DNA of 64,000 nucleotides from an uncultured Synechococcus sp. Its GTDB lineage: Bacteria; Cyanobacteriota; Cyanobacteriia; Gloeomargaritales; Gloeomargaritaceae. The translations under genes were made by a program, and so were the position numbers. Each line of letters begins with the position of its first letter. Position 1 is the stretch's first letter. The stretch is taken from contig CAYZTU010000001.1 of assembly GCA_964481635.1 (NCBI GenBank), positions 149,669 to 213,668 of the forward strand, written 5' to 3'. Shown piece by piece: positions 32,271 to 37,155 of this stretch. The notes under the pieces were generated by a model. It was not told where the DNA came from. It saw only the letters and a program-made list of their open reading frames with translations, and made no database searches.

Positions 32271-33959
32271 TTGATGAAAATCCTGTTCTGCGGCTTGATT
32301 GTCTTGGGAGTTATGGAAATTCAGGCTAATGCTTTAGCCCAGGTCGGACCCATTGACCCTAGCCGGATTCAACAGGAGTTGCAACCCCCTCAGGTGCCCA
32401 CCCGCCCCGAAGAAATTACCATTCCCCGTCGGGATGAACCCACCGCCCCCCCCGGCGCAGAAAATGTGCGCTTCATTTTGAAAACGTTGGACATTCAAGG
32501 GGTAACCGCCTTCACCCCGGAGCAACTACAACTTCTTTACCAAGCCAACATCAATACAGAAATTTCCCTCGCAGAATTGTATATTATTGCCGACCAATTA
32601 AATAATCTTTATCGTCAGGGAGGCTACATTTTAACCCGGGTCTTAGTGCCGGAACAAACCATCCAACAGGGTGTGGCTCGCATCGAGGTGGTAGAAGGCT
32701 TTGTGGAGGCGGTAAAGTTCGTCGGTACGACCCCGGCGCAGGAGAACAGGTTGCGGGGTTTTGGGGAGTGGATTCAACGCTCTCGTCCCCTCAAATCCTC
32801 TGCCCTGGAACGGAATCTATTATTGATGAATGATTTGGCGGGTTATGAGGTGCGGGCGAGGCTTGACCCTGGCCAGGAAGTCGGGGGCAGTGTGTTAACT
32901 TTAGAACTAATCTATGACCCATTTGACCCATTTTTTGAAGTGAATAATTGGGCACCCGATTCCGTGGGGCCAGTGCGATTGCAAGGGGGGGTATTTTTGA
33001 ATTCCTTGGGCAATCAGGGGGAACGGTTTAGTTTGAGTGCCGCCACCACACCTTTTGATTTTGAAGAATTAGCTAGTGGCCGGTTTGACTTCCAAATTCC
33101 CATCGGTTTTGACGGGGTGACCTTGGCCACCAGTGCCAGCTACACGGGCACCCAACCGGGGGCGGAAGTTGCGCCATTTCTGGTGACGGGGGAAAGTTTT
33201 AACTTTAATCTCGGCTTGAGTTATCCCCTGATTCGTTCCCGGCAATTAAATCTATCCTTAAATGGCTTATTTGATTTAACCAATAGCACGGTTGCCACCC
33301 GTTTTTTGGGGTTTCCCATTGTTCTCAGCCAAGACCGGATTCGTTCGTTGCGGGTGGGGGCGACCGTGGACAATATCAATGCCGTGGGGTTTACTTCCGC
33401 TTCGATTTTGCTCTCCCAGGGGTTGAGCGGTTTGGGGGCACGGTTGGAGGGCAGTGAAGGGGCACCCCTCTCCCGGGCGAATGGTCAGGCAACGGGGTTC
33501 AAGGTGAACTTGAATTTTGCCCAGTTGTTCACCCTACCCCAGCAATTTAATCTTTTGCTAACGGGAGCGGGGCAGGTGGCCAGTACCTCCTTGCTGGTAT
33601 CGGAGCAGTTTGGCTTGGGTGGACCCAGTTTTGGATCGGCCTACAACCCTTCCCAATTGTTGGGGGATGATGGCTACGGGTTGCGCCTAGAATTGCAACG
33701 GCCAGTGAATTATCGCGCCGGGACGACGCCGATGGTCAGCCAGCCCTATGCCTTTGTGGATTATGGACAGGTGTTTTTGAAACAACCCACGGCGGCGGAG
33801 CCGGGGAATCGGGAGTTGGCTTCCGCAGGGTTAGGACTGCGCCAATTTATTAGTAATTATCTGCAAATGCGTTTGGAATTAGCCTTTCCTTTGAGTAAAT
33901 TTGTGCCCCAGTTTGAGCAAACCCCCCGATTATTATTTAGCGTTCAGGGAGTGTTTTAG
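32271..33959 (+). CDS. TpsB outer-membrane transporter (ShlB/FhaC/HecB family haemolysin activation/secretion protein with POTRA domains).
   Basis: Signal peptide, a POTRA-like N-terminal region, and a C-terminal beta-barrel ending in a terminal F. Positioned immediately downstream of tpsA. Confidence 0.8.
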   Translation: MMKILFCGLIVLGVMEIQANALAQVGPIDPSRIQQELQPPQVPTRPEEITIPRRDEPTAPPGAENVRFILKTLDIQGVTAFTPEQLQLLYQANINTEISLAELYIIADQLNNLYRQGGYILTRVLVPEQTIQQGVARIEVVEGFVEAVKFVGTTPAQENRLRGFGEWIQRSRPLKSSALERNLLLMNDLAGYEVRARLDPGQEVGGSVLTLELIYDPFDPFFEVNNWAPDSVGPVRLQGGVFLNSLGNQGERFSLSAATTPFDFEELASGRFDFQIPIGFDGVTLATSASYTGTQPGAEVAPFLVTGESFNFNLGLSYPLIRSRQLNLSLNGLFDLTNSTVATRFLGFPIVLSQDRIRSLRVGATVDNINAVGFTSASILLSQGLSGLGARLEGSEGAPLSRANGQATGFKVNLNFAQLFTLPQQFNLLLTGAGQVASTSLLVSEQFGLGGPSFGSAYNPSQLLGDDGYGLRLELQRPVNYRAGTTPMVSQPYAFVDYGQVFLKQPTAAEPGNRELASAGLGLRQFISNYLQMRLELAFPLSKFVPQFEQTPRLLFSVQGVF

Positions 33960-33961
33960 GA

Positions 33962-34080
33962 TACCGCTATTGATTAGCTACACCACACCAGCCAACAAAA
34001 TAAGCGGTCGCAGGGGCATAACCACCGTCTCTGGTTCTCGTTAACTTTGATGATTCTCGTAAATCATCTGTGATTGCTAG
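33962..34080. repeat. MITE-like repeat copy R8 (AAGCGGTCGCAGGGGCATAACCACCGTCTCTGGTTCT ... GTGATTGCTAG).
   Basis: Core and right TIR. Sits directly next to the left end of the IS605-family element. Confidence 0.55.
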
Positions 34081-34094
34081 TTTAAGTATTTTTT

Positions 34095-35697
34095 ATAGAA
34101 TATGAGCGGAAAACCCGGCTGCTTGCGGCGGGGATGGATAGCGAATCAACAAACAGCGCGCGTAGCGCATCCTTACAAAATAAATGCTATAATGTAAGGT
34201 ATGACAGAACGTGCTTTCAAGTTCCGCTTCTACCCAACTCCTGAGCAAGAAACCTTGCTTAGAAGGACGCTTGGCTGTGTAAGGCTGGTGTATAACCGTG
34301 CCCTCGCAGCCAGAACAGAGGCTTGGTATCAGCGTCAAGAGCGAATTGGGTTTGACATACTCCACCGCCCTAAAGGGCAGGGATTCTAAACCTCACGATT
34401 TAGATTTCTGCTTCTTTCTCTTTCGAGCCTTTCGCAACTGCCTCTACTCTCAAGGAGTTTTGGTCTTATGTTCGCTCCACAGACTTCAAGCTATTCCCCG
34501 CTTTCCCGGATGCCCCTCGGTATGGGGTTGGAAAAACTTGTTTTTTGTTTTCCCGATGTAATTCTAACAAAGTTTTTGTAAAGCCGCCCTGAAAGGGCGG
34601 GGTTTTAGACCCAGTTTTTTGATAACCAATCGTCCGCAATGCTGACCGAGTGGAAGCGGGATGAGGGGCTGAGTTTTCTGAGCGAGGTAAGCTCTGTCCC
34701 TCTCCAACAAGGATTGAGGCATCTGCAAACCGCATTCAGCAACTTCTGGGCAGGCAGAGCGCAATATCCCAACTTCAAAAAGAAGCGGAACGGGGGTTCT
34801 GCTGAGTTCACCAAGTCGGCATTCAAGTTTAGAGATGGTCAGGTGTTCCTGGCTAAATGCTCTGAAGCCTTGCCGATTCGTTGGTCTAGGCAGCTTCCTA
34901 AAGGTGCTGAACCCTCTACCATCACAGTCAAGCTGGAGCCATCGGGTCGCTGGACTGTTTCGCTGTTGGTGGATGATCTGACTATTCAACCGCTACCAAA
35001 AACTGACAAAGCGATTGGGATTGATGCCGGAATTACCAGCCTGGTTACAACCAGTGACGGTGAGAAGGTGTCCAACCCTAAACACTTTGCCAAGCTCTAT
35101 CAGAAGTTGAAGAAGGCTCAGAAACGGCTAAGCCGCAAGCAAAAAGGCTCTCGCAATCGGGATAAGGCACGGCGCAAAGTTGCCCGTGTCCATGCCGAGA
35201 TTAGAGACTCTAGACACGATTTCCTGCACAAGTTGACAACGCAATTGGTGAGAGAAAACCAAACCATCGTTGCTGAGTCGCTGGCAGTGAAAAACATGGT
35301 CAAGAATCGGAAGTTGGCAAAGTCGATTTCTGATGCTGGATGGAGCGAAATGAACCGCCAACTGGCCTACAAAGCTGAGTGGTATGGTCGTAACTTTGTC
35401 CAGCTTGACCGATGGTTCCCTGGTTCTAAAACTTGCTCGAAGTGTGGGCATAAAGTTGATTTGCTTCCTCTAAATGTTCGTGAGTGGGATTGTCCTAAAT
35501 GCAATGCTCACCATGACCGGGATGTGAATGCTGCTATAAACCACTTAGCTGCTGGACAGGCAGTGTTAGTCTGTGGAGCGACCGTAAGACCTGAAGAGAG
35601 CAAATCTCGGAAGGCTGGTGCTATGAAACAGAAACCTAAGCCGTGAGTCTTAGGAATCCTCGCTGCTTGCGGCGAGGAGGATGTCAATCGCTGCCAA
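34095..35697 (+). mobile_element. IS200/IS605-family TnpB-only insertion element (IS1341-like). Subterminal hairpins share a GCTGCTTGCGGCG motif, at 34113-34134 on the left end and 35657-35678 on the right end.
   Basis: Imperfect palindromes at both ends flank a tnpB gene. No tnpA is present. The right end abuts the stop codon of the methyltransferase gene. Confidence 0.7.
34201..35646 (+). pseudogene. tnpB: tnpB (RNA-guided endonuclease TnpB/OrfB) interrupted after codon ~58 by a roughly 240-bp insertion (34376-34613) that carries in-frame stops.
   Basis: N fragment begins MTERAFKFRFYPTPEQETLLRRTLGCVRLVYN. C fragment has SEVSSVPLQQ, a RuvC-like D/E/D region and a CxxC...CxxC zinc finger. 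Both fragments are in the same frame. Confidence 0.75.
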
Positions 35698-35698
35698 C

Positions 35699-36436
35699 TC
35701 ACATTTTTTGTGCCATAAACCGTAATCGTACATAATCCACAACCCAGACCCCAGCCGGTTGATAAAGTTGGGGACGCAACCGTGCCACGACCTCAGCGAT
35801 AAAATCGTCCCGTTCCTCTGGCCGTATCCACGCCAGGGAGGACTGGGCAAACATCAGCAACCAATCCCGCAAATCTCCAGGTAAAGGGGTGGGACGCGGG
35901 ATTAGTTCAATGGTGGGCACCCGAAAGCCCTGGGCGGCCAGCAGTTGGCGATAGGTGGTGGGGTCGGGAAAAAAACACGGGTACGGCACGTTCAGTCCCC
36001 GGGCAGCAAAGGTCGTCTCCATGGCCGTGAGGATGGCGGCGATATTGCCCCGCCCCCCAAACTCCCCGACAAAACGGCCACCGGGTTTGAGGGCACGCCA
36101 CACCCCGGCGATCACCGCTGTCGGCTCCAGCATCCAATGCAAGGCCGCATTGGAAAAAACCGCATCAAATTCCTGGTCAAACGCCAGGGCGGTTCCATCC
36201 ATGACCTGGGCGGTCACTCCCCGGGATTGGGCGGCAGCGACCATCTCCGGGCTGGCATCCACACCGAGGACGGTCGCCCCCACTGCCTGGAGTTTCACGG
36301 TTAACGCCCCATCGCCACAGCCCAAATCCAGGATGTGTTCCCCCGGTTGGGGTGCGAGTAAACCCACAACTGCCTCGCCCAAATCGGAGACAAAGCGGGC
36401 GGTTTGGGCGTACTGCTCAGGATTCCAGGTTTGCAC
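35699..36436 (-). CDS. Class I SAM-dependent methyltransferase (trans-aconitate methyltransferase-like).
   Basis: SAM-binding motif ILDLGCGDG and an acidic loop VLGVDASPEM. Confidence 0.8.
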   Translation of the reverse strand: MQTWNPEQYAQTARFVSDLGEAVVGLLAPQPGEHILDLGCGDGALTVKLQAVGATVLGVDASPEMVAAAQSRGVTAQVMDGTALAFDQEFDAVFSNAALHWMLEPTAVIAGVWRALKPGGRFVGEFGGRGNIAAILTAMETTFAARGLNVPYPCFFPDPTTYRQLLAAQGFRVPTIELIPRPTPLPGDLRDWLLMFAQSSLAWIRPEERDDFIAEVVARLRPQLYQPAGVWVVDYVRLRFMAQKM

Positions 36437-36444
36437 TTGTCCAA

Positions 36445-37155
36445 CTACTGCATGGCACGGTTCAGGGTTTGATGGAGCCGCGCCACCACCGGCACCACCG
36501 GGATGCTGGGGTCATTAAAAACCGTCTGCGCCGACAGGGGGGAGCGGCCATAGAAGGCTTCCGTCCGGTCACGGTTGAAGGAAATACGGTTGCCAGAGAG
36601 GGTCACCCCGGCGAATAAACCGGCACTGCGGGAGTAGGCAAAAATGTCCGTATTCCCCGGCGTATCCGTAGGCATCACCGCATTACTCCCCACCGGGCCG
36701 GCGGCCACCCCCACATCCCCACCCAGATTTACCGACTGGCGCAGGAGACTGCGTACCGCCCGTTGGTTCATAAACACCAGCACAATATCCGAGGATTTTG
36801 CGCCCGCTTGCAGGCCAAAACTGCCCCCGGAAAGGCCGACAAAAATCGGGTTACCCCAGCGGCCTTTGTCATCTTTTACCGTAATAATGCCGGAACCGCC
36901 CGTGCCGCCAAAAATAAATCCCGCCGTGGTGACGTTGGGGATAATGGCAATCCCCTGGGCTTGGCGCATCACGCTACTGGGAATGCGTTGGTTGGGGTTG
37001 GCCATGAAGGAGGCAAAGGTGTCGGCGGCATTTTGGATTTGTTCTTCCCCATCTTCCGCCTGAGCCGGTACGGCGACGGTGATCACGACTGCGGGGATCA
37101 AACCCATGAGCATGGCATAGCGCATCCCATTCACTCCCAGAACTAGCGATTGCAA
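36445..37155 (-). CDS. SYLF (Ysc84-like, DUF500) lipid-binding domain protein with a signal peptide.
   Basis: Glycine-rich SYLF core (GGTGGSGIITVKDDKGRWGNPIFVGLSGGSFGLQAG). The start may be the internal MRYAML. Confidence 0.65.
   Translation of the reverse strand: MQSLVLGVNGMRYAMLMGLIPAVVITVAVPAQAEDGEEQIQNAADTFASFMANPNQRIPSSVMRQAQGIAIIPNVTTAGFIFGGTGGSGIITVKDDKGRWGNPIFVGLSGGSFGLQAGAKSSDIVLVFMNQRAVRSLLRQSVNLGGDVGVAAGPVGSNAVMPTDTPGNTDIFAYSRSAGLFAGVTLSGNRISFNRDRTEAFYGRSPLSAQTVFNDPSIPVVPVVARLHQTLNRAMQ

What the first reader, a model, noticed from the sequence alone, without database searches (positions are those of the whole stretch)
34095..35697. TnpB-only IS200/IS605-family element whose tnpB is interrupted by a ~240-bp insertion flanked by 29-bp hairpin-forming direct repeats
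The tnpB N-terminal 58 codons (34201-34375) and the remaining ~335 codons (34639-35646) are in the same frame. They are separated by an insert bounded by imperfect direct repeats, CGCCCTAAAGGGCAGGGATTCTAAACC at 34364-34390 and CGCCCTGAAAGGGCGGGGTTTTAGACC at 34584-34610. Each can form a CCGCCC/GGGCGG stem-loop, and the second is followed by a T-run, which resembles a terminator. The insert is unrelated to the TATAGCAATCC MITE family. It may be a different small mobile or structured element, or a duplication associated with insertion. The element ends carry GCTGCTTGCGGCG subterminal hairpins, which are presumably the binding sites for a TnpA encoded elsewhere in the genome. The right end abuts the methyltransferase stop codon. 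The 3' end of tnpB plus the right end would normally encode the omega RNA guide.
Basis: seen in the sequence. Interest (0 to 1): 0.55.

Follow-up and report, generated by a model that had tools for sequence, protein, structure and literature searches.

The report
Mini-transposon nested inside a tnpB gene
A tnpB-only insertion sequence of a cyanobacterium has been knocked out by a 270-bp protein-less relative of itself that landed backwards inside the tnpB gene and carries its own guide-RNA-like module; both are clear examples of known kinds of element.

Summary
The host is a tnpB-only IS200/IS605 (IS1341-type) element at 34097-35687. It sits 3' of TTAT with no target duplication. A related strain has the empty site TTTTTTAT|TCGCTGCC.

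Its tnpB is split by an exactly 270-bp insert at 34352-34621. Intact homologues (90-94% identical, 390-393 aa) read straight through as ...ERIGY-NQSSAML....

The two "direct repeat" hairpins lie inside the insert, not beside it. They are the left- and right-end subterminal hairpins of a reverse-oriented, protein-less mini IS200/IS605 element (a PATE). On the minus strand it reads TTAT|CAAAAAACTGGG...hairpin...omega-RNA-like module...hairpin...GTATGTCAA|.

A covariance model built only from 27 such elements of other cyanobacteria hits the window twice. One hit is the insert (138 bits, E 2e-35). The other is the 3' end of the host tnpB (107 bits, E 3.5e-27).

About 36 related copies in more than 12 cyanobacterial genera lack tnpB, follow TTAT/TCAT and end in TGTCAA.

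PATEs that encode omega RNAs used in trans are already described (Meers et al. 2023). This is therefore a new member of a known kind. No evidence was found for targeted homing into tnpB.

The parts
34093..34096 (+). TTAT target / transposon-adjacent motif (TAM) 5' of the host element's left end
   Evidence: The empty site in related strain L056 reads ...TTTTTTAT|TCGCTGCC.... The window's flanks match up to 34096 and again from 35688.
34097..35687 (+). Host element: tnpB-only IS200/IS605 (IS1341-type) insertion sequence. It is 1591 bp, or 1321 bp without the nested insert, and has no target duplication.
   Evidence: Comparison of empty and filled sites. The right end ...GGATGTCAA| is conserved in 4 of 4 homologous elements, after which the flanks diverge.
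34114..34133 (+). Host left-end subterminal imperfect hairpin CCCGGCTGCTTGCGGCGGGG
   Evidence: Direct repeat of the right-end hairpin (D2). It folds only weakly as ssDNA, which is consistent with an imperfect palindrome.
34185..34193 (+). TGCTATAAT, an extended -10-like box 7 nt upstream of the tnpB ATG (inferred promoter)
   Evidence: Read from the sequence. TAAAAT, TATGAT or TAGAAT sits at the same place in homologues. This is inference only.
34201..34351 (+). tnpB 5' part: codons 1-50 plus the first base of codon 51
   Evidence: Pfam HTH_OrfB_IS605. Alignment to intact homologues stops at ...ERIG(Y).
34352..34621 (-). Nested 270-bp protein-less mini IS200/IS605 element (PATE), in reverse orientation
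   Evidence: It is absent from intact homologues. Read on the minus strand it aligns to the host right end. Relatives with the same architecture occur in 36 cyanobacterial loci.
34622..34625 (-). TTAT (minus strand), the target/TAM 5' of the PATE left end
   Evidence: The reconstructed empty site GGGT|ATAACC gives GGG TAT AAC, as in homologue L003. The flanks of 19 PATE copies are 12 TTAT, 4 TCAT, 2 TTAT/TTATC with the border shifted by one base, and 1 GTAT.
34584..34600 (-). PATE left-end hairpin CCGCCCTTTCAGGGCGG (minus strand)
   Evidence: ssDNA fold of -8.6 kcal/mol, z -2.6. A hairpin sits at the equivalent position in other copies, and its stems covary.
34561..34569 (-). TGTTAGAAT (minus strand), an extended -10-like box that could drive the PATE's RNA (inferred)
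   Evidence: Read from the sequence. TAGAAT- or TAAAAT-like boxes sit at the same place in most short-class copies. Not tested.
34352..34537 (-). Omega-RNA-like structured module of the PATE, ending at TCAA
   Evidence: Covariance model R1, built from 27 copies outside the window, scores 138.2 bits, E 2.1e-35, over the full model length.
34362..34382 (-). PATE right-end hairpin CCCTGCCCTTTAGGGCGGTGG (minus strand)
   Evidence: ssDNA fold. In the family alignment, 6 of the 7 pairs of this helix show compensatory changes.
34332..34351 (-). Predicted guide of the PATE's omega RNA (ACCCAATTCGCTCTTGACGC), which is antisense to tnpB codons 44-50
   Evidence: Inferred from its position immediately 3' of the right end, by analogy with characterised TnpB systems (Meers et al. 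2023). Not tested.
34622..35646 (+). tnpB 3' part, from the rest of codon 51 to the stop. The RuvC D-E-D triad and the CxxC...CxxC zinc finger are intact.
   Evidence: Pfam OrfB_IS605 plus Cas12f1-like TNB. D186, E270, D352, C323, C326, C342 and C345 are invariant in the alignment with intact homologues.
35532..35687 (+). Host element's omega-RNA-like module, overlapping the tnpB 3' end and the right end
   Evidence: R1 scores 107.4 bits, E 3.5e-27. The same model hits the 3' end of every full-length homologue at 101-128 bits. There is a weak, sub-threshold Rfam HgcC hit.
35658..35677 (+). Host right-end hairpin CCTCGCTGCTTGCGGCGAGG
   Evidence: ssDNA fold of -8.1 kcal/mol, z -2.6. Stems covary among homologues.
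35688..35707 (+). Predicted guide of the host omega RNA (TCGCTGCCAACTCACATTTT). It overlaps the methyltransferase stop codon at 35699-35701.
   Evidence: Inferred from position. The flank is identical in register to the empty site in L056.

Best explanation
These are two nested single-strand ('peel-and-paste') transposons of the IS200/IS605 family.

**Outer element.** The outer element (34097-35687) is a tnpB-only, IS1341-type insertion sequence. It inserted 3' of a TTAT between a ShlB-type gene and a methyltransferase gene. It encodes an RNA-guided TnpB nuclease and an omega-RNA module at its right end.

**Inner element.** Later, a 270-bp non-autonomous relative (a PATE) inserted in the opposite orientation 3' of a TTAT on the minus strand, inside codon 51 of tnpB. 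The PATE has no ORF. It keeps the left-end hairpin, a -10-like box, an omega-RNA-like scaffold of about 185 nt and the right-end hairpin ending in TCAA.

**Consequence.** The insertion brings in stop codons and separates the N-terminal part of TnpB from the rest, so the nuclease is inactivated. Both elements must be moved in trans by a Y1 TnpA encoded elsewhere.

**Shown versus inferred.** Shown: the borders, the absence of target duplication, the shared TTAT target and TCAA end, homology of the RNA modules, and the family distribution. Inferred: that the PATE's RNA is transcribed, is loaded onto a TnpB supplied in trans, and is used for retention or homing, as described for other PATEs.
For: - **Intact homologues lack the segment.** They are 390-393 aa and 90-94% identical. 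The DNA junctions reconstruct GGG TAT AAC.
- **An empty site exists for the outer element** in a strain whose neighbourhood is 94-97% identical.
- **The insert resembles the host right end.** Read on the minus strand, the insert aligns to the host right end. Its 3' half matches the 3' ends of annotated tnpB genes in cyanobacterial plasmids, in the same orientation.
- **A protein-less family exists.** 36 cyanobacterial loci carry the same module without a tnpB.
- **Ends are consistent across copies.** 19 copies have the left end preceded by TTAT, TCAT or GTAT. All copies with a recognisable right end finish in TGTCAA (28 with [GT]ATGTCAA, 2 with AATGTCAA), followed by unrelated flanks.
- **An independent covariance model finds both modules.** It hits the window only at 34352-34537 (-) and 35532-35687 (+). 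It also hits the 3' end of every full-length tnpB fetched.
- **The structure is conserved.** 97.6% of cells are paired, against 38-48% when the partners are slid. 11 pairs show compensatory changes.
- **tnpB is otherwise intact.** All catalytic residues are present, so the inactivation looks recent.
- **Literature.** PATEs that encode omega RNAs used in trans are described. A TTAT TAM is known for TnpB.
Against: - No Y1 TnpA was found in the 64-kb window or in the fetched loci, so current mobility is unproven.
- Only one copy of the PATE is in the window. Its copy number in the source genome could not be measured, because that genome was not among the hits of the genome scan.
- The window's PATE is only about 70% identical over its full length to the other short-class copies.
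- Expression of either RNA was not tested. The promoter scan (which requires a -35) did not flag the -10-like boxes.
- Much of the covariation lies in the right-end hairpin, which is also a DNA hairpin needed by TnpA, so it does not by itself prove an RNA function.
- The retrieval pattern forced one helix to be invariant.
Confidence: 0.88

Rival explanations
1. The insert is a targeted ('homing') insertion. The PATE's omega RNA, whose guide is now ACCCAATTCGCTCTTGACGC next to TTAT, directs a TnpB supplied in trans to cut uninterrupted copies of this tnpB family. Recombination then copies the PATE into them. On this view the PATE is a hyperparasite of tnpB genes, not a chance insertion.
For: The predicted guide plus TAM exactly matches the reconstructed uninterrupted site. 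TnpB-mediated homing of this kind is established for IS605 elements. The PATE module and the host module are homologous.
Against: - A metagenome scan for the junction of the right end with this tnpB site returned only 4 unrelated chance matches.
- The other 36 PATE copies have diverse flanks that are not tnpB.
- The closest intact homologue differs from the guide at position 2 of the seed.
- Any IS200/IS605 insertion automatically creates such a guide/site match, so the match carries no information.
Confidence: 0.05
2. The insert is a dead fragment. It would be a leftover of an old rearrangement or an internal deletion derivative of a second IS copy that is no longer mobile, with no RNA function. 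The conserved 3' module would then reflect only the DNA requirements of transposition.
For: There is a single copy in the window, and no TnpA nearby. It is only about 70% identical to its relatives. The strongest covariation is in the right-end DNA hairpin.
Against: - Both ends are complete and precisely bounded by TTAT and TCAA, with no loss of target sequence.
- About 130 nt upstream of the right-end hairpin are conserved across more than 12 genera in elements free of coding constraint. Compensatory changes occur in two helices outside that hairpin. To my recollection of the IS608 literature, this is more than TnpA needs; I did not test it here.
- A Logan assembly contig breaks 26 nt inside the PATE left end, as expected at a repeat.
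Confidence: 0.1
3. The insert is a self-splicing intron, an IStron-like element or a natural variable segment of TnpB, so the gene is still functional.
For: The insert length is a multiple of 3 (270 nt), so the two tnpB parts stay in frame.
Against: - The plus strand has an in-frame stop at 34387-34389.
- Rfam finds no intron or other family in 33500-36500 at E<=1.
- The homologous RNA module is on the opposite strand.
- None of the nine aligned homologues has an extra segment there, and the top 120 listed hits are mostly 389-393 aa, the length expected without it.
Confidence: 0.01

Closest known systems
PATEs (palindrome-associated transposable elements): protein-less derivatives of IS1341/IS605-type elements. 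They were first named in Haloquadratum (PMC3119063) and later noted in Geobacillus stearothermophilus and Clostridioides, where they often encode omega RNAs (Meers et al. 2023, PMC10055086; Zedaveinyte et al. 2023).
   Same: The insert is short (270 bp) and has no ORF. Its left- and right-end subterminal hairpins lie on the same strand. It has no terminal inverted repeats and no target duplication. It inserts 3' of a fixed tetranucleotide and carries an omega-RNA-like module. It depends on TnpA and TnpB supplied in trans.
   Different: This is a cyanobacterial lineage with its own conserved motif (AAACTCCTTGAGRGTAGAGGC), which was not seen in any tnpB-bearing element fetched here. It is spread over more than 12 genera in two size classes (270-300 and 368-410 nt). 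This copy is nested, in reverse orientation, inside a tnpB gene.
IS1341-type (tnpB-only) members of the IS200/IS605 family, together with characterised TnpB/omega-RNA systems such as ISDra2 and ISDge10
   Same: TnpB has the HTH/WED N-terminus, the RuvC D-E-D triad and the zinc finger. The omega-RNA module overlaps the 3' end of tnpB and the right end. The TAM equals the target site; TTAT is also the ISDge10 TAM. No tnpA is present in the element.
   Different: The gene is interrupted here. Nuclease activity, TAM and guide length were not tested for this clade.
IS608 (Helicobacter pylori), the mechanistic model for peel-and-paste transposition
   Same: It inserts 3' of a tetranucleotide (TTAC in IS608, TTAT here). 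The element ends in TCAA, has subterminal hairpins, and makes no target duplication. The IS608 values are recalled from the literature, not tested here.
   Different: IS608 carries tnpA. Here TnpA is absent from both elements and from the window.
Classical cyanobacterial MITEs such as Nezha
   Same: They are small, non-coding, multi-copy mobile elements in cyanobacteria.
   Different: Nezha has terminal inverted repeats and flanking direct repeats. The element here has neither.
Rfam HgcC family RNA (RF00062)
   Same: There is a weak resemblance over the GGAAUCC-hairpin-GGAGGAUGUCAA right-end portion of the host module.
   Different: The score is 17 bits against a gathering score of 50. It is not a member.

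Membership tests
IS200/IS605 family (host element, IS1341-type) | Subterminal imperfect palindromes at both ends on the same strand, with no terminal inverted repeats | tested here: met
   Hairpins at 34114-34133 and 35658-35677 form a direct repeat. The right-end fold has z -2.6. Stems covary among homologues.
IS200/IS605 family (host element, IS1341-type) | Insertion 3' of a fixed tetra- or pentanucleotide without target-site duplication | tested here: met
   The empty site in L056 is TTTTTTAT|TCGCTGCC. The filled site is TTAT|AGAATATG...GTCAA|TCGCTGCC.
IS200/IS605 family (host element, IS1341-type) | Encodes TnpB (OrfB) with a RuvC triad and zinc finger | tested here: met
   Pfam HTH_OrfB_IS605, OrfB_IS605 and Cas12f1-like TNB. 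The catalytic residues are invariant. The gene is interrupted.
IS200/IS605 family (host element, IS1341-type) | Mobilised by a Y1 (HUH) TnpA | not testable with these tools
   No Y1_Tnp was found in the 64-kb window by tblastn with a validated IS608 TnpA. The rest of the genome is not available.
PATE (protein-less IS200/IS605 derivative), the insert | Short, without ORF, bounded by left and right ends of an IS1341/IS605-type element including both palindromes | tested here: met
   It is 270 bp. The left-end hairpin is at 34584-34600 and the right-end hairpin at 34362-34382. The right-end half aligns to the host right end and to plasmid tnpB 3' ends. Only a remnant of about 20 aa with similarity to TnpB is left.
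PATE (protein-less IS200/IS605 derivative), the insert | Same target and cleavage rules as the parent family (no target duplication, fixed 5' target, fixed 3' end) | tested here: met
   The site reads TTAT|C...GTCAA| with the empty site reconstructed. 19 relatives follow TTAT, TCAT or GTAT, and all those with a recognisable right end finish in TGTCAA.
PATE (protein-less IS200/IS605 derivative), the insert | Multi-copy or dispersed (evidence of mobility) | tested here: inconclusive
   The family is dispersed. There are 3-5 copies in each of five draft genomes or MAGs, all with different flanks, and one tandem pair. The copy number in the source genome of this window could not be measured; only an assembly break inside the left end hints at repetition.
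Omega RNA (TnpB guide RNA) | Structured scaffold overlapping the 3' end of tnpB and the right end, followed by a guide taken from the flank | tested here: met
   The same covariance model hits the 3' end and right end of six tnpB genes and ends exactly at the transposon border. 11 of 35 pairs covary.
Omega RNA (TnpB guide RNA) | Transcribed and bound by TnpB, and directs TAM-dependent DNA cleavage | not testable with these tools
   No expression or biochemical data are available. Only -10-like boxes were read from the sequence.
Classical MITE (Nezha-type) | Terminal inverted repeats and flanking direct repeats (target duplication) | tested here: not met
   The ends CAAAAAAC... and ...ATGTCAA are not inverted repeats. 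There is no duplication at the reconstructed site.
Group I intron / IStron | Intron covariance-model match, sense orientation, restores the ORF on splicing | tested here: not met
   Rfam at E<=1 gives no intron. The structured module is on the antisense strand.
   The scan flags only the small stem at 34600-34612 plus a T-run. It found 3 sites in the region against 2.2 expected from shuffles. The structure is explained as the complement of the PATE left end.

The most novel reading that the evidence does not exclude
The cyanobacterial PATE lineage found here may be a long-lived, horizontally spreading 'guide-RNA satellite'. On this reading it has kept and reshaped an omega-RNA scaffold without any tnpB of its own, and it lives off TnpB and TnpA made by other elements. 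In this window it has inserted into a tnpB of the clade it probably exploits. Its guide would then be aimed at uninterrupted copies of that gene, so it could spread through, and disable, the tnpB population (hyperparasitism with RNA-guided drive).
Probability: 0.06. Interest if true: 0.6.

Novelty: new member of a known kind. Interest (0 to 1): 0.3.

Why it matters
- **Annotated example.** This is a cleanly resolved natural example of nested IS200/IS605 elements. Both sets of borders are verified by empty sites. Together they give the TAM (TTAT), the transposon end (TCAA) and the omega-RNA scaffold for a widespread cyanobacterial TnpB clade.
- **A conserved protein-less lineage.** A protein-less lineage has kept the omega-RNA scaffold across many genera. 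This supports the view that guide RNAs and nucleases of these transposons are modular and can be parasitised in trans.
- **Practical use.** The covariance model and the TTAT|...TCAA| rule could be used to annotate such mini-elements, which are currently left unannotated, and to avoid calling the 335-aa fragment a gene.
- **Limit.** It does not open a new mechanism.

Tried and rejected
- **Rfam scan of 33500-36500 at E<=1.** Only a sub-threshold HgcC hit on the host right end; nothing on the insert.
- **Other copies in the window.** Neither the insert nor tnpB has another copy there.
- **Viral contig scan with the PATE motif.** No hits.
- **Metagenome scan for the junction of the right end with this tnpB site (test of recurrent homing).** 4 hits, all AT-rich chance matches with no PATE or tnpB. 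This used the only metagenome scan.
- **P0101, a 335-aa homologue suspected of carrying the same interruption.** tblastn shows a full-length uninterrupted tnpB, so it is a gene-calling truncation.
- **Y1 TnpA in the window and all loci.** None found. The query was validated as Y1_Tnp.
- **Organism identification through cluster names.** No names are on record. The NCBI contig itself was not returned.
- **Five of the 41 genome hits.** The Legionella (2), Solibacteraceae, Bacillota and Anaerolineae hits are chance matches to the 19-nt pattern and give no hit with the covariance model.
- **Terminator reading of the left-end hairpin.** At background level.
- **Classical MITE reading.** Rejected: there are no terminal inverted repeats and no target duplication.
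Full report
**1. Checking the observation**

The region contains an N-terminal tnpB ORF (34201-34389; Pfam HTH_OrfB_IS605, E 5e-23) and a C-terminal ORF (34639-35646; OrfB_IS605, E 2e-33, and Cas12f1-like TNB, E 5e-24), both in the same frame. The two hairpin-forming repeats are at 34365-34392 and 34584-34611. The GCTGCTTGCGGCG hairpins are at 34111-34134 and 35655-35678. A pattern for the insert's repeat occurs once in 64 kb, and 0 of 100 shuffles gave a match.

**2. It is a true insertion, and its exact borders**

I joined the two tnpB halves and searched the protein database. This returned thousands of TnpB proteins. The best are 390-393 aa, 90-94% identical and cover 99% of the query.
- In the alignment all of them read ...QERIGY-NQSSAMLTEWK... 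with no extra segment.
- At the DNA level the closest intact locus (L003) reads GAATTGGCTATAACCAATCG. The window reads GAATTGGGT|[34352-34621]|ATAACCAATCG.
- The insert is therefore exactly 270 bp, lies inside codon 51, and causes no duplication or loss of target bases.
- The rest of tnpB has no frameshift or stop. It keeps the RuvC D/E/D residues and the four zinc-finger cysteines, so the inactivation looks recent.
- An independent Logan assembly of SRR12989705 reproduces the right junction.

**3. What the insert is**

Read on the minus strand, the insert aligns to the right end of the host element ([pair I1], 6, 8):
- GTCTGTGGAGCGAACATAAGACC in the insert against GTCTGTGGAGCGACCGTAAGACC in the host.
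- ...AAGCAGAAATCTAAATCGTGAGGTTTAGAATCC-hairpin-TGGAGTATGTCAA in the insert against ...AAACAGAAACCTAAGCCGTGAGTCTTAGGAATCC-hairpin-GGAGGATGTCAA in the host.

A BLASTN search against plasmids matched the insert's 3' half to the 3' ends of annotated tnpB genes of Calothrix, Trichormus, Stanieria, Tolypothrix and others, always in the same orientation. It also found a complete 283-bp protein-less counterpart in an intergenic region of a Picosynechococcus plasmid.

One scan of species-representative genomes with a motif shared by these two mini-elements gave 41 loci, of which 36 are cyanobacterial. The genera include Pseudanabaena, Snowella, Merismopediaceae, Geitlerinema, Coleofasciculaceae, Nostoc, Phormidesmis, Planktothrix, Chlorogloea, Chroococcopsis, Aliterella and Microcoleus. 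Several genomes carry 3-5 copies.
- None has a tnpB upstream. Only remnants of 30-36 aa remain.
- The left end could be located in nineteen copies. The element follows TTAT (12), TCAT (4) or GTAT (1); in two more (TTATC) the border is ambiguous by one base.
- These copies begin C(A/G)A(A/G)A...TGGGT.TAAAACC-hairpin. Every copy with a recognisable right end finishes in TGTCAA (28 with (G/T)ATGTCAA, 2 with AATGTCAA), after which the flanks are unrelated.
- Sizes fall into two classes, about 270-300 nt and 368-410 nt.
- The window's insert fits exactly: TTAT|CAAAAAACTGGGTCTAAAACC-CCGCCCTTTCAGGGCGG...CTGCCCTTTAGGGCGG-TGGAGTATGTCAA|ACCC.

The hairpin with a T-run on the plus strand is simply the complement of its left end. 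The terminator scan does not rise above shuffles.

**4. The RNA module**

I aligned the 3' modules of 27 copies from outside the window (A6).
- RNAalifold predicts 35 pairs, of which 11 show compensatory changes.
- With the named structure, 97.6% of cells pair, against 38-48% when the partners are slid by 1-3 columns. The covariation score is 0.279 against 0.136 in shuffles (0 of 500 shuffles reach it).
- The compensatory changes lie in the right-end hairpin (6 of 7 pairs), the CCUAAG/CUUAGG stem and the 5' ACCGCAGGGCUUGCGGG stem.
- The central helices are invariant. One of them was forced to be invariant by the retrieval pattern, so they give no information either way.

A covariance model built from this alignment (R1) hits the 64-kb window exactly twice:
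- 34537-34352 on the minus strand (138.2 bits, E 2e-35, full model length). This is the insert.
- 35532-35687 on the plus strand (107.4 bits, E 3.5e-27). This is the host tnpB 3' end and right end.

Both hits end at the TCAA border. The same model hits the 3' end of every full-length tnpB fetched (L003-L006, L009; 101-128 bits). It hits none of the five non-cyanobacterial chance loci. The module is therefore the homologue of the omega-RNA region of tnpB elements. Rfam has no family for it; there is only a 17-bit HgcC resemblance on the host right end.

**5. The host element**

A related strain (Logan SRR24236062; neighbourhood 94-97% identical) has the ShlB-type gene and the methyltransferase gene separated by 129 nt. 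It reads ...GTTTAAGTGTTTTTTAT|TCGCTGCCAACC... there. The window matches this up to 34096 and again from 35688.
- The host element is therefore 34097-35687: 1591 bp, or 1321 bp without the PATE.
- It is inserted 3' of TTAT, ends in TCAA, and has no target duplication.
- Its right end stops 11 nt before the methyltransferase stop codon. The predicted omega-RNA guide (35688-35707) would overlap that stop codon.
- The hairpins at its two ends match each other and differ from those of homologous copies through compensatory changes.

**6. Mechanism**

Shown here:
- Two nested elements follow the same target (TTAT) and end (TCAA) rules.
- Neither makes a target duplication.
- Both have subterminal hairpins.
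- Both carry homologous structured modules.
- tnpB is disrupted.

Known from the literature:
- IS200/IS605 elements move as single strands through a Y1 TnpA that recognises the hairpins.
- TnpB loaded with omega RNA cuts the TAM-flanked empty site and promotes re-copying of the element.
[quoted passage not shown] 2023).
- TTAT is a known TnpB TAM, for ISDge10.

Inferred:
- The PATE is transcribed from a -10-like TGTTAGAAT (34561-34569, minus strand). A similar box sits at the same place in most short-class copies.
- Its RNA is used by a TnpB supplied in trans.
- TnpA is supplied from elsewhere. No Y1 TnpA is in the window (the query was validated).

**7. The homing idea, tested and not supported**

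The PATE's predicted guide (ACCCAATTCGCTCTTGACGC) next to TTAT equals the uninterrupted tnpB site. This match arises automatically for any insertion of this family.
- A metagenome scan for the junction of a PATE right end with this tnpB site gave only four unrelated chance matches.
- The other PATE copies sit in diverse sites that are not tnpB.
- A suspected second interrupted gene (P0101) is an intact gene truncated by gene calling.
- The nested position is best read as a chance hit on a TTAT.

**8. Comparison with known systems, and novelty**

The insert meets the structural definition of a PATE. The host meets the definition of an IS1341-type member of IS200/IS605. Classical MITEs such as Nezha have terminal inverted repeats and direct repeats and are a different kind. 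The intron and IStron readings are excluded.

Everything here is a known kind of element. What is new is a well-delimited cyanobacterial PATE lineage with its own conserved scaffold motif, and a nested insertion into tnpB. Interest is modest (0.3).

**9. Limits**

- The source genome could not be searched, so the copy number of this PATE, the presence of a matching TnpA and the presence of intact tnpB paralogues are unknown.
- No expression data exist.
- E-values from the model are rough, because the calibration was shortened.

Noticed in passing
L056 4754-4882 (Logan SRR24236062), corresponding to window 34096|35688: A closely related strain lacks the whole host IS. Its ShlB-type and methyltransferase genes are 129 nt apart, which gives a clean empty site, TTTTTTAT|TCGCTGCC. 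Its methyltransferase is called 5 aa longer (250 aa against 245 aa).
   Followed up: yes
L001/L002 (Logan SRR12989705 contig of 6693 bp), end of contig = window about 34596: An independent assembly of what appears to be the same organism breaks 26 nt inside the PATE left end. This is what a repeat would cause, and it hints that the PATE or its left end is multi-copy in that genome.
   Followed up: partly
L014 5948-6105 and 6323-6507 (Planktothrix sp. PCC 11201): Two PATE modules lie close together. The sequence right after one TGTCAA end is CGAAAAAATGGGTAGAAACCCCG, which is a new left end. The arrangement is therefore tandem or nested, and TCAA may itself serve as a target.
   Followed up: partly
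window 34185-34201; L003-L005 at equivalent positions: The -10-like box (TGCTATAAT in the window; TAAAAT, TATGAT and TAGAAT in the homologues) lies only about 7 nt upstream of the tnpB ATG. No room is left for a ribosome-binding site, which suggests a leaderless tnpB mRNA in this clade.
   Followed up: no
window 35554-35700: A weak Rfam hit to the archaeal HgcC RNA family (17 bits, gathering score 50) covers the host right end. The shared part is GGAAUCC-hairpin-GGAGGAUGUCAA, which hints at very old conservation of this right-end/omega-RNA 3' portion.
   Followed up: no
L006 496-2345 (ENA ERZ27257313): A full-length homologous tnpB (86% identical) lies directly downstream of, and overlaps the call of, a TniB/AAA_22 gene. 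The gene caller truncated it to 335 aa. The context may be Tn7-like.
   Followed up: partly
L003 and L005: The two closest intact homologues of the host tnpB sit among phage- or plasmid-like genes (Prim-Pol/VapE in L003; HNH and AAA_25 in L005). This suggests transfer of this IS clade on mobile replicons.
   Followed up: no
A6 columns 111-126; The PATE RNA modules come in two forms, with or without an extra stem (GAAACCCCAGCAAUGGGAAG). The window's PATE and the full-length Microcystis element (L009) have a stem at that place with a different sequence (CUCGAAAGAG in the window's PATE).
   Followed up: no
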